Origin: a virus
Taxonomy: Duplodnaviria > Heunggongvirae > Uroviricota > Caudoviricetes
Reading direction: 5' to 3' (one strand)
IMG/VR virus record: IMGVR_UViG_3300031087_000527
Span: 145,384-209,383 of that record
DNA length: 64,000 nt
Below are positions 2,775 through 60,726 of the stretch, in pieces. The number at the start of each line of letters is the position of its first letter. Position 1 is the stretch's first letter. The notes beneath the pieces were generated by a model. That model made no database searches, was not told the origin of the DNA, and saw only the letters and a program-made list of their open reading frames with translations. Position numbers and translations under genes: made by a program.

Positions 2775-2775
2775 C

Positions 2776-2912
2776 ACGCGTAGTTCAATAGTAGAACGTC
2801 ACCTGACTATGAAGGGGAAACGCCCCGCAAAACACGTCAGGTTGGAAAAAGGCTGTATACGGCTGAGTATCTGTAAAGTAGGCTGCGGGAGCAAGACCCG
2901 TCGCGTGAACCA
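2776..2912 (+). ncRNA. 137-nt tRNA-ended structured RNA, reminiscent of the stable small RNAs embedded in T4 tRNA clusters
   Basis: 5' ACACGCG-TA-GTTC-AATAGTA-GAAC (acceptor plus D arm). 3' GCGGG-AGCAAGA-CCCGT (T-arm-like) then CGCGTGA-A-CCA, which pairs with the 5' end (6 of 7). Internal 7-bp stem ACCTGAC/GTCAGGT encloses a 28-nt loop with the hairpin GGGGaaacgCCCC. No ORF. Confidence 0.4.
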
Positions 2913-2952
2913 ATAAAAAATGGTTGTACTTCAGGTTTGAATAGGGTATGAT
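2913..2952 (+). promoter_or_regulatory. sigma70-like promoter (A-tract, GGTTGTACT -35, TATGAT -10) for tRNA-Phe
   Basis: AATAAAAAATGGTTGTACT, 17 nt, then TATGAT, ending 9 nt before tRNA G1 at 2962. Confidence 0.6.
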
Positions 2953-3037: not shown

Positions 3038-3272
3038 ACCGCTTCTCGGTTCGACTCCGAGTAAGACGCAAAAGAAAATTGGCGAAAATTGTACATAAGT
3101 AACCAATGAGTATGGATTGGATTTGCTGAAAAGCAAGCGTTAAAGTCAAGTAGAGGCATCTACTATAATCGGTGGGAGTAATCCCGTGATTTGTCGCCCG
3201 GCGGCGATGTTGACGGATAGGGTTCGAGTCCCTGCAGCGGTGCTAATTTAATAAGCAAAGAGGCGAATAAAA

Positions 3273-3509: not shown

Positions 3510-3585
3510 GGGAGTCAACTCTGGTTTGACAGCTCTGTTTGTAACTCAAGCATCTGGATCGGTTCGAATCCGATAACTTCCACCA
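3510..3585 (+). tRNA. tRNA-like gene, anticodon arm non-canonical (loop GTAACTC); identity undetermined
   Basis: Acceptor GGGAGTC/AACTTCC (6 of 7). T arm ATCGG-TTCGAAT-CCGAT. Encoded A-CCA. The D stem has only 3 bp and the anticodon stem TGTTT/AAGCA carries a G-T wobble. Confidence 0.4.
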
Positions 3586-3653: not shown

Positions 3654-3730
3654 GTTTAGTTGAGATTAGTGGTATATCGGGTAGGATCGCATTTCTATCG
3701 ACACTGGTTCGAATCCAGTACTGAACACCA
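3654..3730 (+). tRNA. tRNA-like gene, 77 nt, with no canonical anticodon stem
   Basis: Acceptor GTTTAGT/ACTGAAC (G-T wobble). T arm ACTGG-TTCGAAT-CCAGT. Encoded A-CCA. D-loop TAGTGGTAT. No 5-bp/7-nt anticodon arm can be drawn in ...GGTAGGATCGCATTTCTATCGAC. Confidence 0.4.
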
Positions 3731-9687: not shown

Positions 9688-9762
9688 GATTTTTTAGCTC
9701 AACGGGTAGAGCATTGGCGGGAGAATCCGCTGACGACGTAGGTTCGAGTCCTGCAGAAATCA
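9688..9762 (+). tRNA. tRNA-like gene with 6-nt anticodon-region loop (GGCGG-GAGAAT-CCGCT); probably a pseudo-tRNA
   Basis: Acceptor GATTTTT/AGAAATC. D arm GCTC-AACGGGTA-GAGC. T arm GTAGG-TTCGAGT-CCTGC. No encoded CCA. Confidence 0.4.
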
Positions 9763-9892
9763 CCTGTTTTATTAGGTTGCGTCCGACAACGTGAGTGGAT
9801 GTGAAAGGTAATAGCACGTTTGGAGCGAAACCAGACTTTCCTATTATCGTTTAAGAGGTGGGCCGATACAACACCTAACCTGATAAGACTAT

Positions 9893-9968: not shown

Positions 9969-10095
9969 TTTTCTCTTCCTCTTATCATTTCAAAAATACC
10001 AATCTAATCTGAAAAGTCTTTACGATAACAATTTGATAAAAAATATTCAATATTGTAAGCTATTTTTAAATAATCATTAAATAGGCGAAACAAAT

Positions 10096-10314
10096 ATGAT
10101 CGTAAAAACTATATTTCTTATTTCTGTTTTTGGTGTTCATGGAAGCACTATTACAAACGTTCAGGTTATGCCTGATATGGCAACATGTAATACGGCGAAA
10201 GAGTTGGTTAATGATGTCAGCTATCAGCCAGAGAAACTGCGTGGTGAAGATTGGGGCAAATATATTTTTAAGCCACGTAAGATTGAATGTGTTGAAAAAG
10301 AAGTAAAGAAATAA
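10096..10314 (+). CDS. small secreted protein (72 aa, signal-peptide-like N-terminus)
   Basis: N-terminus MIVKTIFLISVFGVHGST is signal-peptide-like. Weak SD. Confidence 0.55.
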   Translation: MIVKTIFLISVFGVHGSTITNVQVMPDMATCNTAKELVNDVSYQPEKLRGEDWGKYIFKPRKIECVEKEVKK

Positions 10315-10356
10315 CTTAAATTATAAAAAATGGCTTATTTCGATAAGCCATTTTGC

Positions 10357-11310
10357 TTAATAAACATAATCAAGTTTAGGTTCTTCATGGAAAAGAGTTT
10401 CATAGTTTCTTTCTCGTGCTGATCTCACGAAGTGTTTCATCTTGTTGTAGTTAAATGGCTCTGTATACTCACGATCTTTGATTCGTTGAGATAATAATAA
10501 AGACTCGTTTCTATCCCAATAGGTATATTCAAGAGCATTTTTGCCAGTTTTATCAACCTGGTGAACATCTATTCCTGCGTTTACCAGCATTCTCGCTTTA
10601 TCAATATCAGCGCCAGCACCAAATAAGGCATTACGCCCCCACTCATCTATTTGATTGACATTAATACCTTTCTCAATCAGAGCGGTTAATAGCTGCAGGC
10701 TTCCATCTCTTTCATTACTATCTAAATAGAAAAGCATATTCCGCCCGTATTTATCTACCTGATGAATATTGATGCCATGCTCAACCAGAAATAAGCCTTT
10801 TTCTGCATCAAGAGTGAATAAACCATTACGTTGGGTTTTGGGGTTCACCTGATGTATATCGGCTCCATATTTAATATAAAGTTGGCCCATTTCTTTTTGA
10901 TTATCCAAGCAAAAAGATAGCTCATCAAAAACAGTCTGACCTTTTTTATTTTTCTGGTTAATGTTAATACCTTTCTCTAATAAATAGGTGGAGCTTTCAA
11001 TATTGGTGCTTTGGCTAAAAAGTGCATTTTCGCCATAGATATCAACATTATTAATGTCTGCACCATTTTCTATAAAGAGTTTTATTTTGGTTAACTCATC
11101 GGTTTTAGAAAATGGTGTAAATCCACTAGTTGTTCTGACATTAAAATCAAGAGGTTCAGGTTTGCCCAATCCCCATAGCGTTCTTTTTTGGCTTCTTTTA
11201 ATAATTTCTTCAGCGCTCGCATCAAACATAAAAATCTGATCTTCTCTCAGACCAGCAAACTCTCTGGCGCGGTTATCGAATACACGCATAACATCAGTTA
11301 GACTAAACAT
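10357..11310 (-). CDS. ankyrin-repeat protein (about 317 aa; the track ORF extends to 11343)
   Basis: Minus-strand ATG preceded by AAGGAGAT. At least six 33-aa repeats with the pattern G.(D/N)(I/V)(N/H)Q.D..G.N.LF. Confidence 0.8.
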   Translation of the reverse strand: MFSLTDVMRVFDNRAREFAGLREDQIFMFDASAEEIIKRSQKRTLWGLGKPEPLDFNVRTTSGFTPFSKTDELTKIKLFIENGADINNVDIYGENALFSQSTNIESSTYLLEKGININQKNKKGQTVFDELSFCLDNQKEMGQLYIKYGADIHQVNPKTQRNGLFTLDAEKGLFLVEHGINIHQVDKYGRNMLFYLDSNERDGSLQLLTALIEKGINVNQIDEWGRNALFGAGADIDKARMLVNAGIDVHQVDKTGKNALEYTYWDRNESLLLSQRIKDREYTEPFNYNKMKHFVRSARERNYETLFHEEPKLDYVY

Positions 11311-11435
11311 TGTAATCTCCTTTATTTTTCTAAACTGTATCATTTAGCAGAGGGTAAATCAAATTGACAACTATATAGATTTGCTATTTGAAAAGCATAA
11401 TGATATAGAGCGTAAATAATCGATGGAGAATAAAT

Positions 11436-12813: not shown

Positions 12814-14718
12814 ATGACATATTCTGAACGTCTTAATGATATTGCAATCGTAAAGCTGGACACTGAAGGCTTCTCATCACTCGATAGCCGCACTAAACGT
12901 CTGGCTTATCATCTGTCAGAAGCGGGTATGTGGGGGAAAGTGATCGGGCTGACTCAGGGATCAAGCGCTAACCTTATCGTTATTCCTGCACTAATCCATA
13001 TGTATAAACATCTTGATAAAGAAACTGAAGCTTTTAAGCAGGTTCGTGATAGTTTATTTATGCTCTTTGCGCACGGTGGTCTTTATCATACCACAACAGG
13101 TGAAAAACTGACACTGCCTCTGGATAGTGAGCAATTTGATGTATTGTGTTCTAATGTTTACTGTTCATTAGCTGCCTTATCGATTGAAATATTTCTTTTT
13201 GAGAACGATACCTATAATCTACCTTTATACCGCACCGTTCAAAAAGACGGCGTAGATGTGGTTAAGCAGTCTGGTGTTAACTTCTATGCTGGCCTTACCA
13301 CCGAGGAAGTAATTGCTTTTCGCAAAGAAGCCTACCCGAAACATGATAATGATGAGATTCCACCTTACGGATTTAACGAGAAACTCCTAAAAAATCATCT
13401 CACGGGTGAGATTAAACGAGAAGTCATCTTCGCTGATGGTCTTTATGGTCGCTATGTTAAAGAAATCATTAAAGAGCTTAAGCTTGCTCTGAACTACACT
13501 GAAAATGAAAAACAACATGCCTCTATTGAGACACTGATTACCTTCTATGAGACGGGTGATGCTGCTGATTTTGATAAGCACTGTGTAGCGTGGACGCAAG
13601 ATCAGGATAGTTCGATTTATTTCGTAAATGGCTTGATTGAATCTTATAAAGATCCGCTAGGTGTGGCGTGTAACTTTGAGAGTTTGGTTGCGTTTAAAAA
13701 TCCAGCACAGACAGCTAAAGTGAAGCGTATCATTGATAATATCCAGTGGTTTGAGGATAATCTCCCGTTTGATAAGCGCTTTAAGAAAGATAAGGCTGTA
13801 GGGCTATCTGCGAGTTCTATCAATGTTATTTCTATGGCTGGAGAAACCTCTCCTGTGCTGCCTTTAGGGATTAACTTGCCTAACAGCGACTGGATTCGTA
13901 AAAAGTTTGGTTCTAAATCCGTTACGTTGTCTAACGTGGATTCCTCACGTAGTAGCTATGATGTGCCATTAACCAAAGCCTTGTATCTGGATAAATATCA
14001 GGATCTGATTAAGCGTTATGGCAATGAGACGGGCATCCTTCATACGGACTTGCATGAGATTGCTGGTCATGGTTCGGGCAAAGTGCTGGACGGCGTTAAC
14101 AGTGATGTTCTGTCTACGTATTACTCTGTCATTGAGGAATGCCGTGCGGATCTTGTGGCGCTTTACTATATCCCGGATGAGAAGCTAAAAGAGATTGGTG
14201 TGTTTGCTGAGGATGTCAATGTTCGCGATGCGGCAATGGCTAAGTATGTAGCGTATTTCACTAATGGCGCTATCGGTCAGTTGCGCCGTGTGCGTTTTGG
14301 CGCTGATCTGACACAAGCTCACTTCAGAAACCGCCAGGTTATCTCTACATGGTTGCTTGAAAAAGCGAAGCCTGAACAGATGGCGATGGTTGTGAAGGAT
14401 GGTCAGTATTTCATTGAAGTGAATGATCTGGATGGTGTTCGCGTTCTGGTTGGTCAGTTGCTGGCAGAGGTTCAGCGTATTAAATCGGAAGGCGATTTTA
14501 ACGCGGCTAAAGCCCTCGTAGAGACGTATGGCACCAAAGTTAATAGGTTGGTTCATAAAGAGGTGTTGGAGCGTGTGAGTGGCTTAGGATTGGCGACAGT
14601 GGTAGGCTTCATGACGCCGATTCTGACACCTAACGGCGATGATATTGTTATTGAATATCAGGAAGACTTCCTGACTCAGCAGATTGAGTTGTTTGAGAAA
14701 TATTTCCTGAAGAAATAA
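12814..14718 (+). CDS. dipeptidyl-peptidase III-like zinc metallopeptidase (MEROPS M49 family), 634 aa
   Basis: AAAGGAGAT SD. HEIAGHGSGK and EECRAD lie about 40 aa apart, matching the M49 signature pair HELLGHGSGK / EECRAE. Confidence 0.85.
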   Translation: MTYSERLNDIAIVKLDTEGFSSLDSRTKRLAYHLSEAGMWGKVIGLTQGSSANLIVIPALIHMYKHLDKETEAFKQVRDSLFMLFAHGGLYHTTTGEKLTLPLDSEQFDVLCSNVYCSLAALSIEIFLFENDTYNLPLYRTVQKDGVDVVKQSGVNFYAGLTTEEVIAFRKEAYPKHDNDEIPPYGFNEKLLKNHLTGEIKREVIFADGLYGRYVKEIIKELKLALNYTENEKQHASIETLITFYETGDAADFDKHCVAWTQDQDSSIYFVNGLIESYKDPLGVACNFESLVAFKNPAQTAKVKRIIDNIQWFEDNLPFDKRFKKDKAVGLSASSINVISMAGETSPVLPLGINLPNSDWIRKKFGSKSVTLSNVDSSRSSYDVPLTKALYLDKYQDLIKRYGNETGILHTDLHEIAGHGSGKVLDGVNSDVLSTYYSVIEECRADLVALYYIPDEKLKEIGVFAEDVNVRDAAMAKYVAYFTNGAIGQLRRVRFGADLTQAHFRNRQVISTWLLEKAKPEQMAMVVKDGQYFIEVNDLDGVRVLVGQLLAEVQRIKSEGDFNAAKALVETYGTKVNRLVHKEVLERVSGLGLATVVGFMTPILTPNGDDIVIEYQEDFLTQQIELFEKYFLKK

Positions 14719-16590: not shown

Positions 16591-16635
16591 AAGGTATTGT
16601 GCATGATAAAGGAAGCTGCTATAGTGGCTTCATTG

Positions 16636-16852
16636 TCTTCTTAGCTCAGCGGTTAGAGCCGAGGCCGTAGATCACGGTGGTTGCGAGACGAGAAAATATC
16701 TACGTAAGCGATGCGTATCAGTTAAAGTCTGATAAGGCCCCAGCAGGAAGCCTTTAGCTCAATGGCAGAGCCGTGGCGGAGTTGTCCGTGGTCGTGTAGA
16801 TCCTCGTTTTAATAAGCAATGCGCACTGGTTCGAATCCAGTAGAGGACACCA
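16636..16852 (+). ncRNA. 217-nt composite tRNA-like locus: canonical tRNA 3' half whose acceptor partner lies 210 nt upstream, with two D-arm-like modules between
   Basis: 3' end ACTGG-TTCGAAT-CCAGT, AGAGGAC-A-CCA. The only complementary 5' acceptor, GTCTTCT, is at 16636. D-arm copies are TAGCTCAGCGGTTAGAGCC (16643) and TAGCTCAATGGCAGAGCC (16756). GTAGATC heptamer repeated. No standard anticodon arm. Confidence 0.4.
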
Positions 16853-17134: not shown

Positions 17135-17441
17135 GAGAAGAAGTTATGCGAAGGGACTACTTTTAGTAGTCCTTTTTTTATTTAAAAATCAAAAGCAGAA
17201 TATTATAATGAGCAATAAAAAAGTGCTGACGTGTGCTGACATTTTTGATTACGCAAGCCATTCTCATCATATGAAAGAAGTAAAAGAAAAGCGTGAATCG
17301 CTTAAAATTGAGTTCGCAAGTCTAGCTTGATTTCTACAGGATAAGATTATTCTAAAATAGAGGCAACATTTTGCTTGTGCATGATGTTGTCTTTTGCTAT
17401 ACTTTCTTCATAGAAAGTAATTATGATTAAAGAGGTTGGCG

Positions 17442-24755: not shown

Positions 24756-25820
24756 TTATGCGGCTGTTCTGTGTTCCTTTTCAATATCATCAAGATCATG
24801 TCGAATATTGTTTAGCGTTTTAGCTGTCTCCTCGGAGTAAGTCGTATTCTCATAGACAGCCATGATGATATTATCAATAGAGTTCTTCATACATTCTATT
24901 TTCATTCGTTGCTCTTTGGATGATGTGCTAATTGTAGAAAGTGCCAGATTAGTTCGCTCTATCATTGTCAGCATTTCATGGATGTAAGCCGCGTTTTTAT
25001 TGTTGAGTTTGAATGTATCTTCTATTTGAGAGGATGTATCATTCACAAGTGCCTTGATTTCCTGAGCAGAATCCGCACAGCTTTTGGCTAACAATCTCAC
25101 TTCATTAGCTACAATTGAAAATCCTCTGCCGTGATCGCCCGCTCTTGCAGCTTCAATAGAGGCATTCAGAGAAAGAAGATTAGTTTTAAAAGCCATCTCA
25201 CTAATAAAGTCGGATATCTTTTTAATCTCCAAAGACTGGTCCTTTATGGTGCTTGTAGAGTTTGTCATAAGTGAAACATTCTCTATGGCTTCCTGAACAC
25301 CAGCAAGCGTCATGGAAGCTAATGAAAAGGCCTGATTGGACTCCTGTTCATTGTGTGAGGCGACCTGATAAAGCTCATTCACGCTGTATGCGGTTTTCTC
25401 AACAGCACGGCTCTGTGTTTCATTTCTGGAGAGTAGTGCGAGATTGCCTTTATCCAGTGAGATAAGACTGTCATTAAGACGCTGTGAGGCTTCCTGCTGC
25501 TGAGTTGCCCATTGGCTTAACATTTCTCTGACTACATCAAGATCAGGAGAGCAAAATGCGCTCTTACAGAAGTCTTTATTGCTAAGGTTATGAATATCTT
25601 TACGTAATAAGGCTAATGGGTTAATCAGATTAACCGTAATGTAATGCCGAATAAAAAGTGACGCAGGTAATAGCAAAAAAGGAATAGCGGAAAATAATAT
25701 CAGAGATGTTGATATATCTCCGGTTAAATAAAATACAAAAGGAATAAAAGCATAAAATGAAAAAATAAATAATACCGATGAAGCAACAGCCCTAACAGAA
25801 ATATCTCTTATGTGTTTCAT
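24756..25820 (-). CDS. methyl-accepting chemotaxis protein-like transducer (two N-terminal TM helices, coiled-coil signalling domain)
   Basis: Minus-strand ATG preceded by AAGGAT. Highly conserved MCP signalling core FKTNLLSLNASIEAARAGDHGRGFSIVANEVRLLAKSCADSAQEI. No large periplasmic ligand-binding domain. Confidence 0.85.
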   Translation of the reverse strand: MKHIRDISVRAVASSVLFIFSFYAFIPFVFYLTGDISTSLILFSAIPFLLLPASLFIRHYITVNLINPLALLRKDIHNLSNKDFCKSAFCSPDLDVVREMLSQWATQQQEASQRLNDSLISLDKGNLALLSRNETQSRAVEKTAYSVNELYQVASHNEQESNQAFSLASMTLAGVQEAIENVSLMTNSTSTIKDQSLEIKKISDFISEMAFKTNLLSLNASIEAARAGDHGRGFSIVANEVRLLAKSCADSAQEIKALVNDTSSQIEDTFKLNNKNAAYIHEMLTMIERTNLALSTISTSSKEQRMKIECMKNSIDNIIMAVYENTTYSEETAKTLNNIRHDLDDIEKEHRTAA

Positions 25821-29916: not shown

Positions 29917-31377
29917 ATGACGCAGACTTACTTTATTAAACACGATTATGACAGAACAGTTCAGCCGTTCTGGAATGAACAGTGTCTTAAAATATCTCAA
30001 AACCTTTTTCTCCCCTGCACCGAAAATAATATCCCTAATTTTAAAACTCATTACCTCTCTTCTTTGATCCGTAAGCTTACACCCGTTCATTCTTATCACT
30101 TTCCTTTATTCTTTAAATCTTATGTTATGTCTGCGCCTGATATTGTGGTTAAAGCCGTAAGGAAAGTGCGCTTTTATTTTACCTCGACTGAACAAAGACT
30201 TAAATATGAGCAAATGATGATGGTTGCTCGCAGAGCCTACAATCTTGCGGTTGATATGTGTAATAACAGAGAATTTATCGATGAGCAGGGGAAACCTGTT
30301 GATATCAGAATTCCCATCAGAGATAAAGTAAAAAAAGAAAGTGCTGAAAATAATTATGTTTTTGACACTAATGTCTGCGATCAGGCTGTCAGGATAGCTA
30401 AGTCTGAGTTTATCACTCTCTGTAAAAATAACAAAAAGAAGAAGAATACAACATTATTCACGAGTTTCTCACGACTAGGCTTCAAAAGCCGTAAAGACAA
30501 AAAACAGACCTTTTCCCATCCCCGGATGGGAAAAGAGGGTTCCGTCTGTATAAAATCGTTGGGAAGCATCAGGCTGACGGAAAAGCTGCCTGATGAATGC
30601 TATGGCAAAAATGTTGAGGTAACAATGGAGTATGGCAGATGGTTCATCTGCGTCCAGAAAAATATAGAGATAAAAGGAAACCGTTTAGATTGTTCCGAAA
30701 GCCAAGGGCCAAATAAAACGGTTTCTGAAAAAGAAGTGAAAGTGATTGCTCTTGATCCGGGAAGCAGGACGTTTTTAACAGGATTCAGCGAGAAAGAAGT
30801 TATCGTTTATGGTAAGGATTATTCTATAAAATGCTTACTACCATTGGCAAAGAAGATGCGTGAGCTGTATTCTTTGCGTGAGAGGTTAAAGAAGCATGAG
30901 CTATACAGAAAGGAAAGCCTGGATAATCCGCAGTGGATAAACGATACGTTTAGGCATATAGAAAACAGCCTGAATAGGCTGTCCTGTAAGCGTCAGGATC
31001 TTGTTAATCATCTGCACAGGACTGTAGTTTATGATATAGTGATGAGCTACGATGTGATTTATCTTCCTGATTTCGAAACCAAGTCTATGGTAAAGACTAA
31101 GGGGAGAAGAATAGGCCGTAAAGCTGTTCATAACATGCTTTCTCTGAGTCATTATATTTTTAAGGAATTTCTGCTGTGGACAGCAAAGAAATACGGTAAG
31201 GAAGTCATTATCGTTAACGAGAGTTATACGAGTAAAACCCAAAGCTGGAACGGAGTGGTAAATGAAAAGCTGGGATCATCGAGGTTGATGAAAGACGGCA
31301 AAAGAATAATAAACAGAGATATCAATGGTGCAAGGAATATTTACCTGAAGCACATATCTCAGTTAACTAACATTTAG
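29917..31377 (+). CDS. tnpB: TnpB-like RuvC nuclease (IS200/IS605 OrfB family), zinc-finger cysteines absent; alternative start 30127 gives 416 aa
   Basis: N-terminal VRKVRFYFTSTEQ (KFRLYPT.EQ-like). RuvC-I VIALDPGSRTF. RuvC-II YLPDFETKSM. RuvC-III NRDINGARNI. Where CxxC...CxxC is expected the sequence reads TSKTQSWNG...MKDGKRI with no cysteine. Confidence 0.85.
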   Translation: MTQTYFIKHDYDRTVQPFWNEQCLKISQNLFLPCTENNIPNFKTHYLSSLIRKLTPVHSYHFPLFFKSYVMSAPDIVVKAVRKVRFYFTSTEQRLKYEQMMMVARRAYNLAVDMCNNREFIDEQGKPVDIRIPIRDKVKKESAENNYVFDTNVCDQAVRIAKSEFITLCKNNKKKKNTTLFTSFSRLGFKSRKDKKQTFSHPRMGKEGSVCIKSLGSIRLTEKLPDECYGKNVEVTMEYGRWFICVQKNIEIKGNRLDCSESQGPNKTVSEKEVKVIALDPGSRTFLTGFSEKEVIVYGKDYSIKCLLPLAKKMRELYSLRERLKKHELYRKESLDNPQWINDTFRHIENSLNRLSCKRQDLVNHLHRTVVYDIVMSYDVIYLPDFETKSMVKTKGRRIGRKAVHNMLSLSHYIFKEFLLWTAKKYGKEVIIVNESYTSKTQSWNGVVNEKLGSSRLMKDGKRIINRDINGARNIYLKHISQLTNI

Positions 31378-31529: not shown

Positions 31530-32432
31530 TTAGTTATCGAGAGAGATAACGGGCATAGTAGGCCTGTCAGAAACGATAACTACCATGAGTTTTTCCACAA
31601 TGCGTTTCTTCTCAGCATCCTCAAAAGACACACCGATCTCACTTTGGATGTTAGCAATAGCATCCTTCACGGTTAATACAGCAGCATCAACAATGGCGCG
31701 GCGACTCTCTGCCATTTTTTCAGCTTGCTGACGCATCAGCATAGGCTGAGCGATTTCTGGCGCATAAGCGATCTTAGTAATGCTGGCGCTGATAATAACC
31801 ACACCGATTTCTTTTAAACGTGTATTAATGCTTTCAATCAGCTTGGTTGAAAACGAACCTAAGTTGTTGCTCAGGGTTTCTTCATCAGCCACATTGCTGT
31901 CAAATGCATGTTGAGTAACAATCGTTCTCAGTTCACTCTCGCTGGCGTTGCGAATAAAATCATCTGGCTTCTCAGCATTATAATGGAACGGAGCAGCCTG
32001 TTCAACACGGTAGTTGACCACCATAGAGACATTCAAGGGAATACCCTTTTTGTCATTGATTTTGGTTTCCTGAGTTTCAAAGGTATTAATCTTGGTGCTG
32101 ATTTTCTCAAAGGAGAAGAAAGGATTGACGAATGTAACACCTTCACCCATAAGTGTGCCTCGGTATTTACCTAAGAAGCTGGCAACCACTTTCTGATTGG
32201 GGGAGATAATGATAAAGCTGTTAAAGAAGAAAATAGCAGCAATGATGCCAGAAATAAAAGCCGTAGAACCATACAGAATAGAGATTTCTTCACGGAATTC
32301 ATTATAGCCATAAGGCACCTGAACCTGAGCGTGCATAACAGCGTAGACGGTAATCGCAATGAAGATAAGTGTCAGCACAACGCCAAGATAGGCTGCACTC
32401 AGATTGGTTTTTTCATCTTTCAAAATATTCAT
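31530..32432 (-). CDS. SPFH/band-7 (stomatin/prohibitin-like) membrane protein
   Basis: Minus-strand ATG preceded by GGAG. N-terminal TM helix, then an SPFH-like core (...VASFLGKYRGTLMGEGVTFVNPFF...NVSMVVNYRV...). Confidence 0.8.
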   Translation of the reverse strand: MNILKDEKTNLSAAYLGVVLTLIFIAITVYAVMHAQVQVPYGYNEFREEISILYGSTAFISGIIAAIFFFNSFIIISPNQKVVASFLGKYRGTLMGEGVTFVNPFFSFEKISTKINTFETQETKINDKKGIPLNVSMVVNYRVEQAAPFHYNAEKPDDFIRNASESELRTIVTQHAFDSNVADEETLSNNLGSFSTKLIESINTRLKEIGVVIISASITKIAYAPEIAQPMLMRQQAEKMAESRRAIVDAAVLTVKDAIANIQSEIGVSFEDAEKKRIVEKLMVVIVSDRPTMPVISLDN

Positions 32433-40601: not shown

Positions 40602-41162
40602 ATGAAGATTTTTATTAGGAATAGAAAGTTAAAAGGATTTTCTTTGTTAGAGTTATTATTGGTTTTAGGAATAATAGCGGCGCTAATAGTGGCGGCTTTT
40701 ATTGTTTATCCTAAAGTAAGAACTTCGCAAATAGTTGACGCTGAATCTAAAAATATTGCGACCATTAGAGCAGGATTACTGGCTTTATATTCATCCACAA
40801 CGAATATAACAACAGTAAATAATACAGTAGGAATAAATGCGCAAATATTTCCTGATAATATGTTAGTTCAAAGTGGTGGAACAGTATCAGATGTGGTTAA
40901 TGGTTTTAAAGGTAAAGTAAAGTTGTCTGCTACAAATTATGCTTCCTATGGTAAGGTTGTGTTCAATATAAGTTATGCCAACGTCCCTCAAGATGCTTGC
41001 GTTAAGCTTGTAACAGCAGTTGCTCCAAGTATGTCTATGGTTAACATAGGCGGTAGTTATGCTAAAAGTGATTTATCTAATGTTGACTGGAGTGTGGCAA
41101 ATGCAGCGACAGCATGTAACTCTGCCGGAACAAGCTCAACGATTGTTTTTTCATTTTATTAA
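40602..41162 (+). CDS. type IV pilin/pseudopilin-like protein (class III prepilin signal)
   Basis: AAGGAAGAAAG SD. N-terminus MKIFIRNRKLKG|FSLLELLLVLGIIAALIVAAFIVYP matches the prepilin peptidase site G/F-x-x-x-E followed by a hydrophobic helix. Confidence 0.8.
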   Translation: MKIFIRNRKLKGFSLLELLLVLGIIAALIVAAFIVYPKVRTSQIVDAESKNIATIRAGLLALYSSTTNITTVNNTVGINAQIFPDNMLVQSGGTVSDVVNGFKGKVKLSATNYASYGKVVFNISYANVPQDACVKLVTAVAPSMSMVNIGGSYAKSDLSNVDWSVANAATACNSAGTSSTIVFSFY

Positions 41163-43551: not shown

Positions 43552-43642
43552 AATAAAGGTCGCTTAGCGGCCTTTTTTATTGCTTTGGATTTCTGAAATC
43601 TGTATAATGACAACCATGTTAATGAACTCTATGGTGATTATG

Positions 43643-44266
43643 ATGGAAAAAGAACAATTTGGTGTTAGCCCTTCACATTGGGCAGGACTCAGTGAAGAAG
43701 AGCGCGAGCTTTATCGCATTATTCGTCCTATGCGCACTTGCAATTATAGTGTGACCGTCGAGCTTCATAATGTTAAGCGTGAGCTTGCGCGTCAAGCTGA
43801 GCAGGCGGAGTTGGATGGTGGCGTGTTTAACCTGAATCCTGATTTCCAGCGCGGACATGTATGGTCCCTTGAAAAACAGATTGGCTATGTAGAGAACCTG
43901 CTTCGGGGAACGGCTCCAATTGAAATCAAGTTCAACTGTGCTAAGTTTCATGATTTTAACGCTGAGGCGACGGGAATGCATGGCTATGATATGGTCTGTG
44001 TTGATGGCCTGCAGCGTTTAACCGCCGTTGTGGATTTCATGGATGGCAAGTTCAAGCTTTTTGATGGGCGATATGATGAAACATCACTGCTTAAAACAGC
44101 CTTTTCACCACGCCGTAAGCATCTCCTGTTCCAGATCTATGATGTGAAAGACTATGGTGATTTGATTCAGTTCTATCTGGATCTTAACACAGGCGGTGTG
44201 GTTCATGAAGAAAGTGAGCTTAATCGAGTGAGAAAGCTTCAACAGGATTATCAGTCAAGTAAATAA
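43643..44266 (+). CDS. DUF262 / ParB-like nuclease-domain protein
   Basis: TATAAT upstream. Motifs PDFQRGHVW and DGLQRLTA match the DUF262 (GmrSD N-terminal, ParB-like) signature. Confidence 0.75.
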   Translation: MEKEQFGVSPSHWAGLSEEERELYRIIRPMRTCNYSVTVELHNVKRELARQAEQAELDGGVFNLNPDFQRGHVWSLEKQIGYVENLLRGTAPIEIKFNCAKFHDFNAEATGMHGYDMVCVDGLQRLTAVVDFMDGKFKLFDGRYDETSLLKTAFSPRRKHLLFQIYDVKDYGDLIQFYLDLNTGGVVHEESELNRVRKLQQDYQSSK

Positions 44267-55181: not shown

Positions 55182-56288
55182 ATGCTTGCATTTGGTAAAA
55201 AGACAATGTTCAAAGAACAGGCTGTGGCTACGAGTAGAGCGAAAATAAAACGTAATTTTTTGAAGAATTTTTGCGTTGGGACTATGGTTTTAGTTTGTGG
55301 ACTGGTCTCTTATGATGTTGGTGTTACAGCATCAAATATTAACCATATAAATAATATGGCTGAATATAAGATACAAAATCAGAAATCTCTGGATAATTAC
55401 AGTACCTTTAAAGATCGAGTGATGGCAGTTCCTTATTCGGATGCGCAGTTCAAAAAAGATTTAACCACATTTGAATATATGTATGGTTATAAAGGCTCGG
55501 ATAGCCCCGTTTATAAAAAAATAATAGAGGATGAGAAAAAAAGTTTAAACGTATTATTATATCAAAACTTAGCTAAGGATAATGCTAACAATTTCTATTC
55601 TGATTTATACACTATGACTAAAAGTTATACATTAAAAGATTATATAAATAGAAACAGTGTCGGTCATAAAAAATTTACAGATGATGTCTCAAAGGTGCAA
55701 GGTAAGCATGAAATAGCAGCCATCAAGTATGAAGATGTATTTAATATGAATCAGAAAGAAAGGATTGCTAATATGGCATCCCAAACACTAGGATATTATT
55801 ATAGTAATATCGATAATAAAATGTATCAAAACTTCAGAAATTTACTGGTCGAAAAAGGTTTTAGTGCTAATGCTTATTTTCCTGATAAGGAAAAAGCAGG
55901 AAAATACCATGACCTTTATTATGATTATTTGTATAACTATGAGATGTCTTCTGAAAAGTTGGCTATAAGACAGGATTTCTATGATGATGTTTATAAAAAT
56001 AATCAAACTATCAGGCAATATTATGAGCAAGGCGATTTCAAAAAACTGCGAGAGCTATTTAAAATAGGTAATGGTTTTGCTCAAATAGCAATAACTGATT
56101 ATATCAATGACACAAAAGAAAATAGCAATTTGGGAGAGCCTTTTTATCATCGTTTAGCTCAGCACTTCGAAATGCATCCTGATCTTAAAAAACCCGCTAA
56201 GGTTTACGAAGAGTATACTGGTTCAACTTCTCCAGAAAAGAAAGGCCTCTATGACAGAAGTATTGATACATTTTTGTATATGCCATGA
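55182..56288 (+). CDS. signal-anchored paralogue 1 of 6 (368 aa): basic N-terminus, one TM helix, about 300-aa extracytoplasmic domain
   Basis: AAGGAGACAAAT SD. Motifs VPYSDAQFKKDL, YY..GD.KKLRELFKIGNGF and YTGS.SPEK shared with the next five ORFs. Confidence 0.85.
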   Translation: MLAFGKKTMFKEQAVATSRAKIKRNFLKNFCVGTMVLVCGLVSYDVGVTASNINHINNMAEYKIQNQKSLDNYSTFKDRVMAVPYSDAQFKKDLTTFEYMYGYKGSDSPVYKKIIEDEKKSLNVLLYQNLAKDNANNFYSDLYTMTKSYTLKDYINRNSVGHKKFTDDVSKVQGKHEIAAIKYEDVFNMNQKERIANMASQTLGYYYSNIDNKMYQNFRNLLVEKGFSANAYFPDKEKAGKYHDLYYDYLYNYEMSSEKLAIRQDFYDDVYKNNQTIRQYYEQGDFKKLRELFKIGNGFAQIAITDYINDTKENSNLGEPFYHRLAQHFEMHPDLKKPAKVYEEYTGSTSPEKKGLYDRSIDTFLYMP

Positions 56289-56410
56289 AGATATTTTTTT
56301 CTATTAAATTCTTAAAGAACCACTCGTTGGTTCTTTTTGTTTACATAATAAATTTGGTATATTATCAGCAAAAATAGTATTATTACACTATGATAAAATG
56401 AGGACTATCT

Positions 56411-57502
56411 ATGCTAAAGTTTGGCAATAAAACACTATTCAATCAAAAAATCGCTAGGTCAGAAAAATCTGTTATAAAAAGAAAAACATGGAAGCATATT
56501 GCTGCAGGCGTACTCTGCTTATTTGGAGGAATGGCTACCTATGATGTGGCTGTGACGGCGTCAAACATTAGTCATGTTAATAAAATGGTTGAATACAAGA
56601 TAGCGGACAATGCCTCACTTGATAACTACAGTTCTTTTAAGGCCAGAGTGATGGCTGTACCTTATTCGGATGCGCAGTTCAAAAAAGATTTGAAGACCTT
56701 TGAGTATATATATGGTTACAAAGGCAATGAGAATGTTGTTTTCAAACACTATATGTGGCGTGATCGCGCAGTTGGAAGTAATGTTGAATTGAATGCTATG
56801 CTTGTGATGAATGTTAGGTTTGATAATCCTGGGGAGCTTTATAAAGACATCTATAACTTTACAAAAGGGCGTGATGTTAAGGAGATGACTGATGGAAGAG
56901 AAAATGATTTTTACGGAAAAATTAATGATATTTATAACCAGCATATACCATTTAAAAAGGTTTTTAATAATGCTCAGATGATGAAGTCGATAAGAGCAAA
57001 CATGTCGCTAGGATCTTCTTATAGCTATATTCATAGTGAAAGTAAAATGTATGACAATCTTAGCCAGTTGCTGGTTGAACAGGGGTTTAATCCTCAATCC
57101 TATTTTGCCAGTAAAGAAGATGTCAGAAAAGTGGAATCTATTATTGGTCTTTCTACTAGTGCTGAAAATAAAGTTATATTTGAAAACTATGCTCATCAGG
57201 TAGACAAAAATAACAGAGATTTACGAGCTTATTACGAAAAAGGGGATCTGAAAAAGTTAAGAGAGCTATTCAAAATAGGAAATGGTTTCTCCAAAGTAGT
57301 GGTTTCTGATTATATTGATGGCATGAAAAAAGATTACAATATAGGATATTCTTTTTCATCTTATCTATATCAGAATGAAAGTTTGGGTACAATTAATTTC
57401 CTGAAGCCTGCTGAGTTGTATTCTAAATATACTGGCTCATTAACACCAGAAAAAGAAAAAATATATAAAAAAGATATATTGGATATTTGGTATAGACCAT
57501 AA
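56411..57502 (+). CDS. signal-anchored paralogue 2 of 6 (363 aa)
   Basis: Closest to paralogue 1. A stretch longer than 30 nt, CCTTATTCGGATGCGCAGTTCAAAAAAGATTT, is identical at the DNA level. Confidence 0.85.
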   Translation: MLKFGNKTLFNQKIARSEKSVIKRKTWKHIAAGVLCLFGGMATYDVAVTASNISHVNKMVEYKIADNASLDNYSSFKARVMAVPYSDAQFKKDLKTFEYIYGYKGNENVVFKHYMWRDRAVGSNVELNAMLVMNVRFDNPGELYKDIYNFTKGRDVKEMTDGRENDFYGKINDIYNQHIPFKKVFNNAQMMKSIRANMSLGSSYSYIHSESKMYDNLSQLLVEQGFNPQSYFASKEDVRKVESIIGLSTSAENKVIFENYAHQVDKNNRDLRAYYEKGDLKKLRELFKIGNGFSKVVVSDYIDGMKKDYNIGYSFSSYLYQNESLGTINFLKPAELYSKYTGSLTPEKEKIYKKDILDIWYRP

Positions 57503-57511
57503 GAGGCTAAA

Positions 57512-58585
57512 ATGTTAAAAACTAAAAATATTTTTTATAGAACTATCAGCTATGCTAAAACAAATAGCAGTAAAATCAATAAAGCGTCTCTCCTTAAGAG
57601 AGTTGCTTTAGGTGTCTCACTTTCTATTGCTGCTATAGCCTCTTGGGATGTGGCGGTTAACCTGACCAATATTAAACATGTTGCTGACATGGTTGACTAT
57701 AAAGTGTATAACAACGCTCAGACAAACAACTATTCAAATTTTAAGTCTAAAATGGAGGCTGTTCCTTATTCAGATGAGGATTTTAACCGAGATCTAAACA
57801 TATTTAAGTTAACCTATATTGATGGTAATAAATCTTTTAGAAATACAATAAACTATGGCGATGGTCTTGATACACTTTTACTGCTTAAATACACTTACAC
57901 TGATCCTGTTGGTTATTTAAAAGAGATGTCTTTTGTGAATCAGGAGTCTGTTGATAATCTAAATAATCACAACCCAAGATCAAAACTTAACGCAGAAAAA
58001 ATACAGCGTATTACAGATAAATATAAAATAAAAAGCGATGGGTTTTCTTACGCTGACGATTTACAAGTAAAGAAGCGTGCTAAATCTATATTTGTTGTGA
58101 TGAATAGTGATTTAAATATTGCTGCTGATAATACGTATGCGCCTATTTATGGCAACTTTGAAAGATTATTAAGCGAACATGATATAAACAAAAACATGTA
58201 TTTATGGAGATCAGCTTATATCAAAATGAAGTTTGGAAAAATAAGCGCAAAAGAATATCAGAGTGAACAAGATAAAATAGATAGAGGCGTTGCATTAAAT
58301 ATTGAAACATTAAAGCAATACTATAAGAATGGCGATTTGGATAAGCTAAGGGGAGTATTCCGTTTTGGTAATGCTTTTACTTCTGTAGCAGTAGATCAAT
58401 CTCTAAAAGAAAATGCGCATATAGGCATCCCCATATCTGCTCTGCTTATGACATATTTTGATAATGACTATGATTATTACGATACTATGCAAGAAGGTGC
58501 TAAGGCATATCAGAAGATGACTGGAACACTAACGCCTGAAAAAGAATCGCTTTACGGTAAAGACGATTTTATTCTATGGCACTAA
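57512..58585 (+). CDS. signal-anchored paralogue 3 of 6 (357 aa)
   Basis: 9-nt spacer from the previous gene. VPYSDEDF, YYKNGDLDKLRGVFRFGNAF, TGTLTPEK. Confidence 0.85.
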   Translation: MLKTKNIFYRTISYAKTNSSKINKASLLKRVALGVSLSIAAIASWDVAVNLTNIKHVADMVDYKVYNNAQTNNYSNFKSKMEAVPYSDEDFNRDLNIFKLTYIDGNKSFRNTINYGDGLDTLLLLKYTYTDPVGYLKEMSFVNQESVDNLNNHNPRSKLNAEKIQRITDKYKIKSDGFSYADDLQVKKRAKSIFVVMNSDLNIAADNTYAPIYGNFERLLSEHDINKNMYLWRSAYIKMKFGKISAKEYQSEQDKIDRGVALNIETLKQYYKNGDLDKLRGVFRFGNAFTSVAVDQSLKENAHIGIPISALLMTYFDNDYDYYDTMQEGAKAYQKMTGTLTPEKESLYGKDDFILWH

Positions 58586-58600
58586 ATAAGGGTTAAATAA

Positions 58601-59653: not shown

Positions 59654-59664
59654 GGAAATAAGAT

Positions 59665-60717: not shown

Positions 60718-60726
60718 GGAAATACA

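What the first reader, a model, noticed from the sequence alone, without database searches (positions are those of the whole stretch)
16636..16852. 217-nt composite tRNA-like locus
The 3' end is a textbook tRNA 3' half: ACTGG-TTCGAAT-CCAGT, acceptor AGAGGAC, A, CCA. The only sequence able to form the acceptor stem with it (GTCTTCT) lies 210 nt upstream. The interval contains two near-identical acceptor-proximal/D-arm modules (TAGCTCAGCGGTTAGAGCC and TAGCTCAATGGCAGAGCC) and repeated GTAGATC heptamers. It is either a tRNA gene interrupted by an insertion or intron-like segment of about 145 nt, partially duplicated tRNA remnants, or a larger tRNA-ended RNA.
Basis: seen in the sequence. Interest (0 to 1): 0.55.

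Follow-up and report, generated by a model that had tools for sequence, protein, structure and literature searches.

The report
Two-headed tRNA-like RNA gene
The locus is a conserved gene of uncultivated giant phages for a 218-nt RNA built from two fused tRNA-like units with no anticodon, a shape not described before and of unknown function.

Summary
Window 16635-16852 (+) has a 7-bp acceptor stem closed over 200 nt, two D-arms, a canonical T-arm and an encoded ACCA. It is not an intron-containing tRNA, two ordinary tRNAs, a tmRNA or a decayed remnant.

Eight distinct homologues of 218-223 nt from related giant-phage contigs share one fold. In it, 97-99% of pair cells are standard pairs and 15-19 pairs show compensatory changes, against 1-6 in slid controls.

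The RNA is a tandem duplication of a ~110-nt tRNA-like unit. The halves are about 60% identical, and their acceptor strands are swapped. The result is a dumbbell:
- an outer head: open acceptor stem with CCA, D1, T2;
- an inner head: T1, closed acceptor-like hairpin, D2, which is YrlA-like in layout;
- a short hairpin in each head;
- a ~30-bp inter-unit rod joining the two.

No conserved anticodon loop exists. The gene has a recurrent phage promoter ending 10 nt upstream. In one relative it lies inside a tRNA array.

Function is inferred only. The most likely role is a stable, non-decoding, bivalent tRNA mimic that acts as a decoy or scaffold for tRNA-binding proteins. It is absent from Rfam, GenBank phages and E. 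coli genomes. I class it as a new variant of tRNA-like non-coding RNA.

The parts
16597..16625 (+). Promoter-like element TTGTGC-N17-TATAGT. The -10 hexamer ends 10 nt before the RNA's first base.
   Evidence: The motif TTGT[AGT]C-N16-18-TAnnnT occurs 22 times on the + strand and 2 times on the - strand of the window. It has the same 10-nt spacing before tRNA-Pro (2693) and tRNA-Phe (2962). It is conserved in L037, L039 and L042. The generic sigma-70 scan did not flag it, because the -35 matches only 3 of 6.
16612..16631 (+). Conserved 8-bp hairpin GAAGCUGC-UAUA-GUGGCUUC overlapping the -10 element. It could be a terminator for the upstream 239-aa gene or a leader hairpin.
   Evidence: The scan flags it as terminator-like. 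In L039 a G-to-A change turns a U.G pair into U-A, which keeps the stem.
16635..16641 (+). Outer acceptor stem, 5' strand (GUCUUCU).
   Evidence: It pairs with 16842-16848. All 7 pairs are kept in 8 sequences, and 2 pairs show compensatory changes.
16642..16659 (+). U8-A9 plus D-arm 1 (GCUC-AGCGGUUA-GAGC), part of the outer head.
   Evidence: The stem is invariant. The loop carries A14, G15 and G18G19 in most sequences.
16664..16678 (+). Hairpin A1 (GCCGU-AGAUC-ACGGU).
   Evidence: Two of its 5 pairs covary (CCGU/ACGG, CUGC/GCAG, CUGU/ACAG). The loop sequence varies, so it is not an anticodon loop.
16680..16712 (+). Rod, 5' strand (M1b).
   Evidence: It pairs with 16791-16820. The duplex energy is -16 to -23 kcal/mol, against -1.4 to -8.4 for the local hairpins, in all 7 sequences tested. 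The sequence is replaced in L039 (GAUUCAUA/UAUGAAUC) and L049 (GAGAUAA/UUAUCUC) with complementarity kept. Six of the 10 pairs of helix 5 are compensatory.
16716..16734 (+). T-arm 1 (UAUCAG-UUAAAGU-CUGAUA), part of the inner head.
   Evidence: The stem is invariant in all 8 sequences and the loop differs only in L078 (UUCAAGU) and L039 (UUAAAAU); with the preceding CGAUGCG it is the best-conserved block of the RNA. The loop has A where tRNA has C56 in 7 of 8 sequences.
16735..16753 (+). Closed acceptor-like hairpin of the inner head. It is formed by unit 1's 3' acceptor strand and unit 2's 5' acceptor strand, capped by a tetraloop.
   Evidence: It covaries: AAGGC/GCCUU, AAGGUU/AACCUU and AGGGUUUC/GAAAUCCU.
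16755..16771 (+). UA plus D-arm 2 (GCUC-AAUGGCA-GAGC), part of the inner head.
   Evidence: The stem is invariant. The loop is variable and G18G19 is lost in L037.
16776..16789 (+). Hairpin A2 (GCGGA-GUUG-UCCGU), the counterpart of A1.
   Evidence: The stem is kept in all 8 sequences. The loop varies: GUUG, UAUAG, AAGUU.
16791..16820 (+). Rod, 3' strand (M2b).
   Evidence: It is the partner of 16680-16712.
16825..16841 (+). T-arm 2 (ACUGG-UUCGAAU-CCAGU), part of the outer head.
   Evidence: Three of its 5 stem pairs are compensatory: ACUGG/CCAGU, ACAGG/CCUGU and GUUGG/CCAAC.
16842..16852 (+). Outer acceptor stem 3' strand (AGAGGAC), discriminator A and the encoded CCA.
   Evidence: GACACCA is invariant in the 8 dimer sequences.

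Best explanation
Window 16635-16852 (+) is a gene for a 218-nt structured RNA that does not decode codons.

Origin (shown). It arose by tandem duplication of a ~110-nt tRNA-like unit. The acceptor strands are swapped: unit 1's 5' strand pairs with unit 2's 3' strand, and unit 1's 3' strand pairs with unit 2's 5' strand.

Fold (shown by covariation). The RNA is a pseudo-symmetric dumbbell.
- The outer tRNA-like head has a 7-bp acceptor stem, discriminator A, an encoded CCA, D-arm 1 and T-arm 2.
- The inner head has T-arm 1, a closed acceptor-like hairpin and D-arm 2.
- Each head carries one short extra hairpin.
- The heads are joined by a ~30-bp imperfect helix made of the two units' central segments.
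- There is no conserved anticodon.

Expression (inferred). The RNA is transcribed from its own phage promoter, or within a tRNA array as in L049. It is probably matured like a tRNA, with RNase P cutting at G1 and 3' trimming down to the encoded CCA.

Function (inferred, the weakest step). It probably persists as a stable tRNA mimic that engages tRNA-binding protein(s) through two heads held a fixed distance apart. That would make it a decoy, inhibitor or scaffold, for example for a dimeric tRNA-targeting or tRNA-modifying enzyme.
For: Tool calls on the locus. ARAGORN in default mode and Rfam at gathering threshold do not call it.

Homologues. Eight distinct 218-223-nt homologues come from syntenic giant-phage contigs and from one non-syntenic tRNA array.

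Fold.
- RNAalifold gives 68 pairs, 15 of them compensatory.
- On the MAFFT alignment 97.0% of cells are paired, against 38-48% when partners are slid. Compensatory pairs number 15 against 2-6, and 0 of 500 shuffles reach this.
- On the model-based alignment the figures are 98.7% and 19 pairs.
- Independent MFE folds of L048, L037, L039 and L049 recover the same architecture.
- For six of the eight sequences the consensus fold is within 0.2-3.5 kcal/mol of the MFE; for L039 and L049 the alignment-projected fold is far weaker.
- The rod duplex is far more stable than the local hairpins in 7 of 7 sequences.

Origin. The halves share 65-67 identical positions out of about 110, with alignment scores 6.5-7 SD above shuffles. 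In L041 each unit hits the Rfam tRNA model over positions 5-66.

Specificity. The covariance model separates true copies (200-265 bits) from ordinary tRNAs (52 bits or less).

Expression signals. The promoter family has the same spacing as before tRNA-Pro and tRNA-Phe.

tRNA-like core. Position 15 and the base before the T stem are G and C in the outer head and A and U in the inner head, as in the tRNA Levitt pair (read).
Against: - There are no expression, processing or binding data, so the function is inference only.
- The whole sequence is not more stable than shuffles (z = -0.41), and the window's own MFE is a different fold 3.5 kcal/mol lower.
- There are only 8 distinct sequences, 6 of them close relatives, so the shuffle statistics are not probabilities.
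- Elbow nucleotides are relaxed. C56 is A in T1 in most sequences and in T2 of L037. G18 or G19 is lost in some D-loops. Either head may therefore not be recognised as a tRNA.
- The RNA is dispensable. L042 lacks it, and L036 and L077 carry a 105-nt deletion derivative.
- No candidate partner protein was identified in the window.
Confidence: 0.55

Rival explanations
1. It is a tRNA gene, tRNA-Tyr(GUA), interrupted by a ~128-nt intron or insertion that is removed to give a functional class II-like tRNA.
For: ARAGORN run with -i calls tRNA-Tyr(gta) over 16635-16852 with a 128-nt intron, anticodon loop CUGUAGA and discriminator A. CGAGG at 16660-16664 can pair with CCUCG at 16802-16806.
Against: The same mode calls Cys(gca) in L037 and L078, Phe(aaa) in L039 and His(gtg) in L049, each with different intron boundaries. 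It also calls a tRNA in 178 of 200 controls with a shuffled interior. L039 and L049 have no complementary partner for the supposed anticodon stem. The 'GUAGA' of the supposed anticodon loop is base-paired in the rod with a compensatory change (67:168 C-G to U-A). There is no group I intron or other Rfam hit. The 'intron' is as conserved as the 'exons'.
Confidence: 0.04
2. It is a neutral or decaying product of tRNA gene duplication, two tandem pseudo-tRNAs with no function of their own.
For: The halves are homologous. Deletion derivatives (L036, L077) and complete absence (L042) exist. Elbow nucleotides are relaxed.
Against: Between 15 and 19 pairs show compensatory changes. The rod was wholly re-sequenced in L039 and L049 with complementarity kept. 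A 27-nt block around T1 is conserved (25 of 27 positions invariant), and so is the promoter. The RNA is retained in two different genomic contexts.
Confidence: 0.06
3. It is a Y RNA-like RNA (YrlA type) that binds a Ro60/Rsr protein and tethers it to an effector.
For: The inner head has the YrlA layout of T-arm, closed acceptor-like hairpin and D-arm. It gives weak YrlA hits of 17.1, 23.2 and 18.3 bits. Phages are known to carry YrlA RNAs (PMC4201824).
Against: The scores are far below the gathering score of 69, and below the 32-39 bits of other phage YrlA-like modules found here. The paper itself warns that T-arm plus D-arm of dimeric tRNAs are false positives for the YrlA model. The ends form a tRNA acceptor stem with CCA, not a Ro-binding stem. 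The GNCGAAN0-1G motif is absent from the sequence. No TROVE or RtcB domain occurs in the 39 ORFs scanned.
Confidence: 0.1
4. It is a cis-acting 5' leader or processing module for the downstream 85-aa gene. A tRNA-like punctuation site would be cut by RNase P or RNase E to define or stabilise the mRNA.
For: In 7 of the 8 dimer-bearing homologues it lies between the promoter and the 85-aa ORF. No terminator precedes the ORF, which starts 24 nt after CCA, and a strong terminator follows the ORF at 17150-17176. L042 keeps the promoter and the gene without the RNA.
Against: In L049 the RNA sits in a tRNA array with no such gene downstream. A 218-nt two-headed covarying structure is far more than a cleavage site needs. 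A single tRNA-like end would be enough.
Confidence: 0.1
5. It is an aminoacylated, tmRNA-like or regulatory tRNA mimic that enters the ribosome or another aminoacyl-tRNA-dependent pathway through its open CCA head.
For: The outer head has a 7-bp acceptor stem, A73, an encoded CCA and a canonical T-loop. A long helix leaves the tRNA-like core, as P2 does in tmRNA.
Against: Pair 3:70 is C-G rather than G.U. There is no conserved reading frame or stop, and the UAAUAA in the window is not conserved. ARAGORN's tmRNA mode and the Rfam tmRNA families find nothing. No synthetase identity set is recognisable.
Confidence: 0.08

Closest known systems
YrlA, the bacterial and phage Y RNA-like RNA (Rfam RF02553; Chen et al. 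2014, PMC4201824)
   Same: It contains a circularly permuted tRNA-like module, T-arm then closed acceptor-like hairpin then D-arm, sitting at the end of a long helix. It has no anticodon. It is found in phages.
   Different: In YrlA the helix ends in the free 5' and 3' termini and carries the Rsr-binding site. Here the helix ends in a second complete tRNA-like core with an open 7-bp acceptor stem and CCA. An extra hairpin lies between the D-arm and the helix, not in the variable-arm position. Scores are 17-23 bits against a gathering score of 69. No Rsr gene was seen.
tmRNA, its tRNA-like domain plus helix P2
   Same: A tRNA-like acceptor/T-arm domain with CCA lacks an anticodon arm and continues into a long helix leading to a second domain.
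   Different: There is no G3.U70, no tag reading frame and no pseudoknots. The second domain is another tRNA-like core. tmRNA detectors do not find it.
Phage T4 species 1 RNA (rnaC, 139 nt) and species 2 RNA (rnaD) in the T4 tRNA cluster
   Same: These are stable small RNAs encoded among phage tRNA genes. rnaC carries a canonical T-arm (CCGGG-UUCGAAU-CCCGG) with terminal pairing and large inserted hairpins. Their function is still unknown (my own knowledge).
   Different: No homology was detected: model R1 does not hit rnaC or rnaD in L074. rnaC has one head, no D-arms and no encoded CCA in the annotated span.
Tandem or dimeric tRNA genes and dimeric tRNA precursors
   Same: Two homologous tRNA-like units lie head to tail in one transcript. 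In L041 each unit hits the tRNA model over positions 5-66.
   Different: Neither unit can close its own acceptor stem. The strands are swapped between units, the central arms pair with each other instead of forming anticodon arms, and the whole RNA covaries as one molecule.
Circularly permuted tRNA genes and two-piece (permuted) tmRNA genes
   Same: The inner head has a 3' half (T-arm plus acceptor 3' strand) preceding a 5' half (acceptor 5' strand plus D-arm), joined by a short loop.
   Different: There is no evidence that the loop is processed. Its sequence is a variable tetraloop (AGCA, AGUA, GGUA, GGCA, GUUA, GCCA). The Rfam permuted-tmRNA families give no hit.

Membership tests
Canonical tRNA (Rfam RF00005 / ARAGORN) | 7-bp acceptor stem, discriminator base, CCA-compatible 3' end | tested here: met
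   GUCUUCU pairs with AGAGGAC, followed by A and CCA. All 7 pairs are kept in 8 sequences and 2 are compensatory.
Canonical tRNA (Rfam RF00005 / ARAGORN) | Anticodon arm: 5-bp stem and 7-nt loop with U33 and a conserved anticodon | tested here: not met
   ARAGORN in default mode makes no call in any of 8 homologues. The loops of hairpins A1 and A2 are 4-5 nt and variable. The Rfam alignment skips 44-46 nt where the arm should be.
Canonical tRNA (Rfam RF00005 / ARAGORN) | Score at or above the Rfam gathering threshold of 29 bits | tested here: not met
   The window locus gives 16.9 bits, and only a partial match. The 105-nt deletion derivative L036 reaches 39.5 bits, with a 44-nt insert.
Intron-containing bacterial or phage tRNA | Conserved exon junction that restores one anticodon arm, and a recognisable self-splicing (group I) core | tested here: not met
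   Intron-mode calls disagree among homologues (Tyr, Cys, Phe, His). Of 200 interior-shuffled controls, 178 are also called. There is no Intron_gpI or other intron hit in Rfam. At 128 nt it is also below the usual group I size (my own knowledge).
YrlA / Y RNA-like (RF02553) | Permuted tRNA-like module: T-arm, closed acceptor-like stem-loop, D-arm | tested here: met
   The inner head at 16716-16771 has this layout. The hairpin covaries and aligns to YrlA model positions 24-84.
YrlA / Y RNA-like (RF02553) | Score at or above the gathering threshold of 69 bits | tested here: not met
   Scores are 17.1, 23.2 and 18.3 bits.
YrlA / Y RNA-like (RF02553) | 5' and 3' ends form the Rsr-binding stem carrying the GNCGAAN0-1G motif (PMC4201824) | tested here: not met
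   The ends form a tRNA acceptor stem with CCA. I did not find the motif when reading the aligned sequences. YrlA model positions 1-23 and 85-114 do not align.
YrlA / Y RNA-like (RF02553) | Encoded next to an Rsr (TROVE-domain) gene | tested here: inconclusive
   No TROVE or RtcB domain occurs in the 39 ORFs scanned in the 64-kb window, which include 33 of the 35 ORFs of 180 aa or more. The rest of the 294-kb genome could not be examined.
tmRNA | G3.U70 alanine identity pair, tag reading frame with a stop codon, pseudoknots | tested here: not met
   Pair 3:70 is C-G in all sequences. ARAGORN's tmRNA mode finds nothing. No tmRNA family hit occurs in Rfam. No frame or stop is conserved across homologues.
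T4 species 1 RNA (rnaC) | Sequence or structure homology to T4 rnaC | tested here: not met
   Model R1 finds only the ordinary tRNAs in the T4 region L074 and does not hit rnaC at 1909-2047. The folds differ.

The most novel reading that the evidence does not exclude
This would be a previously unrecognised class of bivalent tRNA mimic. Two complete tRNA cores are fused end to end through a shared helix. The class was created by tandem duplication plus acceptor-strand swap. Giant phages would use it to trap or bridge dimeric tRNA-recognising proteins, for example tRNA-cleaving defence nucleases. It would also be a living intermediate showing how permuted YrlA-type tRNA-like modules arise from tandem tRNA genes.
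Probability: 0.25. Interest if true: 0.85.

Novelty: new variant of a known kind. Interest (0 to 1): 0.68.

Why it matters
Phage tRNA regions are usually annotated with tRNA finders and the rest is ignored. This locus shows that a covarying, promoter-driven 218-nt RNA with two tRNA-like heads can hide there, invisible to ARAGORN and Rfam.

If it binds tRNA-recognising proteins, it would add an RNA-based strategy to the current picture of phage tRNAs countering tRNA-targeting defences.

Structurally it is a natural domain-swapped tRNA dimer. It suggests a simple route from tandem tRNA genes to permuted tRNA-like modules such as YrlA.

The same window holds several other non-canonical tRNA-like RNAs, so the phenomenon may be broader than this one locus.

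Tried and rejected
Searches that found no relatives:
- GenBank phages, by nucleotide similarity. Only T-arm-sized matches to tRNA genes appeared, covering 18% of the query or less.
- E. coli genomes gave the same result.
- IMG/VR, using the flanking 239-aa and M49-peptidase proteins, found nothing.
- Two degenerate D-arm or T-loop patterns in IMG/VR returned only ordinary tandem tRNAs or chance hits.
- In 185,579 species genomes the 17-mer gave 23 chance hits, none with the flanking D-arm.

Structural ideas dropped:
- My first fold idea paired GAUCACGG with CCGUGGUC, as in the single-sequence MFE. I dropped it once homologues showed that those segments form local covarying hairpins A1 and A2.
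- CGAGG/CCUCG as an anticodon stem is not conserved in L039 or L049.
- The GTAGATC direct repeats as intron or target-site boundaries are not conserved.

Other checks:
- ARAGORN's intron mode proved uninformative under a shuffled-interior control.
- I looked for Rsr, RtcB and tRNA enzymes among 39 ORFs and found none.
- The neighbouring 239-aa and 85-aa proteins match nothing in Pfam or among PDB sequences. In PHROGs only the 85-aa protein matches, to a family of unknown function.
- I searched for the same T-arm, closed hairpin, D-arm motif elsewhere. It occurs in other IMG/VR tRNA arrays, but there as single-headed, sub-threshold YrlA-like RNAs and not as two-headed ones.
- The literature searches found no description of a two-headed tRNA-like phage RNA.
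Full report
**1. The observation**

- A canonical T-arm, ACTGG-TTCGAAT-CCAGT, is followed by AGAGGAC, A and CCA.
- The complementary GTCTTCT lies about 200 nt upstream.
- There are two D-arm modules and two GTAGATC heptamers.
- ARAGORN in default mode tRNAs in the window but nothing here.
- Rfam at gathering thresholds tRNAs and nothing here.
- In permissive mode Rfam gives only a partial tRNA match of 16.9 bits and a weak YrlA (Y RNA-like) match of 17.1 bits over 16711-16774.
- The single-sequence fold is not more stable than shuffles, with z = -0.41. The case therefore rests on comparative evidence.

**2. Source and relatives**

The window comes from a 294-kb metagenomic contig, ENA ERZ27247428 k141_35101. 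It has no close relative among GenBank phages.

Homologues of the upstream 239-aa and downstream 85-aa proteins led to syntenic contigs. A conserved 18-mer led to two JGI/IMG-VR contigs.

In all there are eight distinct full-length copies of 218-223 nt: window, L048, L075, L037, L038, L078, L039 and L049.

Three other states exist.
- L036 and L077 carry a 105-nt derivative. The stretch between the two D-arm repeats has been deleted, and L077 also has CCA mutated to CCC.
- L042 lacks the RNA altogether.
- In L049 the RNA is not between those protein genes. It sits inside a tRNA array: Arg, Met, Leu, Arg, Met, then the RNA, then 3 nt, then a tRNA-Pro-like gene.

No copy was found in 185,579 species genomes by the 17-mer. 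GenBank phages and E. coli genomes gave only T-arm-sized matches.

**3. The fold**

RNAalifold on six and then eight sequences gives one structure of 68 pairs in 12 helices.

| Measure | MAFFT alignment | Model-based alignment |
|---|---|---|
| Cells forming standard pairs | 97.0% | 98.7% |
| Same, 3' partners slid 1-3 columns | 38-48% | 38-48% |
| Pairs with compensatory changes | 15 | 19 |
| Same, slid controls | 2-6 | 1-4 |
| Shuffles reaching the observed value | 0 of 500 | 0 of 500 |

The model-based alignment leans toward the structure, so its figures are the more favourable ones.

Independent MFE folds of L048, L037, L039 and L049 recover the same architecture. For the window and its five close relatives the consensus fold lies 0.2-3.5 kcal/mol above the MFE; for L039 and L049 the alignment-projected fold is much weaker (-33.9 and -56.2 against MFEs of -68.1 and -65.8), which I attribute to mis-aligned rod columns.

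The pieces, in window RNA numbering, are:
- the outer acceptor stem, 1-7 with 208-214;
- D-arm 1;
- hairpin A1, whose stem covaries (CCGU/ACGG, CUGC/GCAG, CUGU/ACAG) and whose loop varies;
- a long imperfect helix, the 'rod', between 46-78 and 157-186;
- T-arm 1;
- a closed acceptor-like hairpin, 101-119, which covaries (AAGGC/GCCUU, AAGGUU/AACCUU, AGGGUUUC/GAAAUCCU);
- UA and D-arm 2;
- hairpin A2;
- a 4-nt linker;
- T-arm 2, which covaries (ACUGG/CCAGU, ACAGG/CCUGU, GUUGG/CCAAC);
- ACCA.

The rod has been almost completely re-sequenced in L039 (GAUUCAUA/UAUGAAUC) and L049 (GAGAUAA/UUAUCUC) relative to the window (GAGACGAG/CUCGUUUU), yet it stays complementary. The inter-segment duplex is worth -16 to -23 kcal/mol, against -1.4 to -8.4 for the two segments folded locally, in all seven sequences tested.

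The many G.U pairs, the loop motifs, the CCA and the promoter orientation fix the + strand.

**4. Origin by duplication and strand swap**

The 5' and 3' halves align over their whole length with 65-67 identities out of about 110. The scores are 6.5-7 SD above shuffles. In L041 each half separately matches the Rfam tRNA model over positions 5-66, at 30.3 and 20.2 bits.

So the RNA is a tandem duplication of a ~110-nt tRNA-like unit. Neither unit can close its own acceptor stem, because the strands are swapped. Unit 1's 5' strand pairs with unit 2's 3' strand to form the outer stem. Unit 1's 3' strand pairs with unit 2's 5' strand to form the closed hairpin. The two central segments pair with each other.

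The product is a pseudo-two-fold dumbbell with two five-way junctions. Both have the same cyclic order: acceptor, D, short hairpin, rod, T.

In both heads, position 15 and the base before the T stem match a tRNA Levitt pair: G15/C48 in the outer head and A15/U48 in the inner head (read). The 4-nt linker GCG(C/U) resembles a class I variable loop. This suggests that the rod occupies the anticodon-stem position. That last point is inference.

**5. Expression signals**

A motif, TTGT[AGT]C-N16-18-TAnnnT, occurs 22 times on the + strand and twice on the - strand of the window. One copy ends 10 nt before G16635, the same spacing as before tRNA-Pro and tRNA-Phe. It is conserved in the relatives.

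No terminator separates the RNA from the 85-aa ORF. A strong terminator follows that ORF.

The tRNA-array context in L049 requires excision from a polycistronic precursor. Maturation by RNase P and 3' trimming to the encoded CCA is inferred from the 7-bp acceptor stem stacked on a 5-bp T stem. It was not tested.

**6. Alternatives tested**

*Intron-containing tRNA.* ARAGORN with -i calls tRNA-Tyr(gta) with a 128-nt intron. The same option gives Cys, Phe or His with other boundaries in the homologues. It also gives a tRNA call in 178 of 200 controls whose interior was shuffled. The supposed anticodon GUA lies in a covarying rod helix. No intron family matches.

*Two ordinary tRNAs.* No tool resolves them, and the acceptor strands do not allow it.

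*YrlA.* The inner head has the YrlA layout, but it scores 17-23 bits against a gathering score of 69. The YrlA paper warns that the T-arm and D-arm of dimeric tRNAs mimic the model. The Rsr-binding stem and motif are absent. No TROVE or RtcB domain was found in the 39 ORFs scanned.

*tmRNA.* There is no G3.U70, no conserved frame and no detector hit.

*Pseudogene.* Covariation, a conserved 27-nt block around T1 (25 of 27 positions invariant), the conserved promoter and retention in two genomic contexts all argue against it. The deletion derivatives and the empty site do show that the RNA is dispensable.

**7. Is the architecture unique?**

The motif 'T-arm, closed 6-9-bp hairpin, D-arm' was absent from the first 586 kb of sequence held, except in this family.

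These score 32-39 bits on YrlA. At least one, L153, has a simple closing stem. They look like single-headed, sub-threshold YrlA-like RNAs.

None is two-headed as far as I examined. Model R1 gives 200-265 bits for the family, 54-57 for the deletion derivatives and at most 52 for ordinary tRNAs.

**8. How it most likely works**

Shown: this is a conserved, structured, promoter-associated RNA gene with two tRNA-like cores and no anticodon.

Inferred: it is processed like a tRNA and is stable because both ends are buried in a tRNA-like acceptor stem. Because it cannot decode, its tRNA-like surfaces most plausibly serve to bind proteins that recognise the tRNA acceptor/T-arm/elbow region. Two heads at a fixed distance suggest a dimeric or bridging target.

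The invariant T1 hairpin and the invariant UCCGUGGUCG.GUA block contrast with the freely covarying T2 stem. They suggest at least one sequence-specific contact.

A decoy or inhibitor role against tRNA-targeting host enzymes fits current knowledge that phage tRNAs counter such defences (PMC11555353, PMC10802454, PMC13096335). Nothing here tests it.

**9. Verdict**

The 'larger tRNA-ended RNA' reading is right, the duplication is real, and the intron reading is not supported.

The RNA belongs to the known kind 'tRNA-like non-coding RNA'. Its closest relatives by architecture are YrlA, the tmRNA tRNA-like domain and T4 species 1 RNA. It fails the membership tests of each.

Its two-headed, strand-swapped design is, as far as the searched libraries and papers show, undescribed.

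Limits:
- only eight sequences, six of them close relatives;
- no expression or binding data;
- only 64 kb of a 294-kb genome examined.

Noticed in passing
window 2775-2913 (+): A ~137-nt tRNA-like RNA abuts tRNA-Pro. It has acceptor CACGCG/CGCGUG followed by AACCA, a D-arm GUUC-AAUAGUA-GAAC, several inserted hairpins and a degenerate T-arm GCGGG-AGCAAGA-CCCGU. Neither ARAGORN nor Rfam calls it.
   Followed up: partly
window 3038-3243 (+): A ~206-nt predicted structure directly after tRNA-Phe is closed by ACCGCU/AGCGGU. It has two T-arm-like hairpins, CUCGG-UUCGACU-CCGAG at 3045-3061 and UAGGG-UUCGAGU-CCCUG at 3218-3234. It has no CCA.
   Followed up: partly
window 3510-3577 and 3654-3727 (+): The first is a tRNA-like 3' end (ATCGG-TTCGAAT-CCGAT, then AACTTCC and ACCA) without a normal D-arm. 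The second is a tRNA that only Rfam calls (35.5 bits), whose T-arm is identical to T-arm 2 of the locus.
   Followed up: no
window 9688-9764 (+): This tRNA has an 8-nt anticodon loop and a four-base anticodon (agaa) according to ARAGORN. It could be a frameshift-suppressor-like tRNA.
   Followed up: no
window, 22 sites on the + strand (e.g. 2655, 2924, 7939, 16597, 19543, 20261, 35425): A recurrent promoter-like motif, TTGT[AGT]C-N16-18-TAnnnT, is strongly strand-biased (22 against 2). It lies 10-40 nt upstream of several tRNAs.
   Followed up: partly
window 29917-31377 (+): A 486-aa ORF carries a Cas12f1-like TNB domain, so it is TnpB-like. This points to a possible IS200/IS605-type element or an RNA-guided nuclease in the phage genome.
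   Followed up: no
window 55182-61830 (+): Six tandem ORFs of 350-368 aa of similar size, perhaps paralogues (similarity not tested); the four scanned have no Pfam match.
   Followed up: no
window 10357-11343 (-), 12814-14718 (+), 24756-25820 (-), 31530-32432 (-), 40602-41162 (+), 43580-44266 (+): The cargo is unusual for a phage: an ankyrin-repeat protein, an M49 peptidase, an MCP signalling-domain protein, an SPFH/Band 7 protein, a PilS-type pilin and a weak GmrSD_N hit.
   Followed up: no
L049:455-586 (-): Two genes downstream of the RNA in the divergent relative lies a 132-nt tRNA (Rfam 47.2 bits) with a ~60-nt insertion. ARAGORN does not call it.
   Followed up: no
L119:1755-1874, L137:3312-3378, L153:4298-4358, L163:8894-8997, L174:6787-6899, L193:12599-12706 (-), also L120, L164, L170: These are T-arm, closed hairpin, D-arm modules inside IMG/VR phage tRNA arrays. 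They score 32-39 bits on Rfam YrlA (gathering score 69). They are probably unannotated phage Y RNA-like RNAs. L153 has a 9-bp closing stem.
   Followed up: partly
L164:8971-9618 (+): A ROOL RNA (298 bits) lies immediately upstream of one of these YrlA-like modules in a dense tRNA array.
   Followed up: no
L163:8790-9090 (+): The motif TTCATCCTTCTA(T/C)A occurs four times around the YrlA-like module. A tmRNA lies at L163:4738-5051.
   Followed up: no
L003 / L009 (IMG/VR): Adjacent tRNA-like genes, each with a ~45-nt insertion after the D-arm (for example GGGGTAGCTCAGTGGTTAGAGC...GGTTCGAGTCCAACCCCC). They turned up as chance matches to a search pattern.
   Followed up: no
L039:7115-8035 and 10019-10474: A radical-SAM protein and a YqeY (GatB-like, tRNA-related) domain protein lie 1-4 kb downstream of the RNA in the L039 relative.
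   Followed up: no
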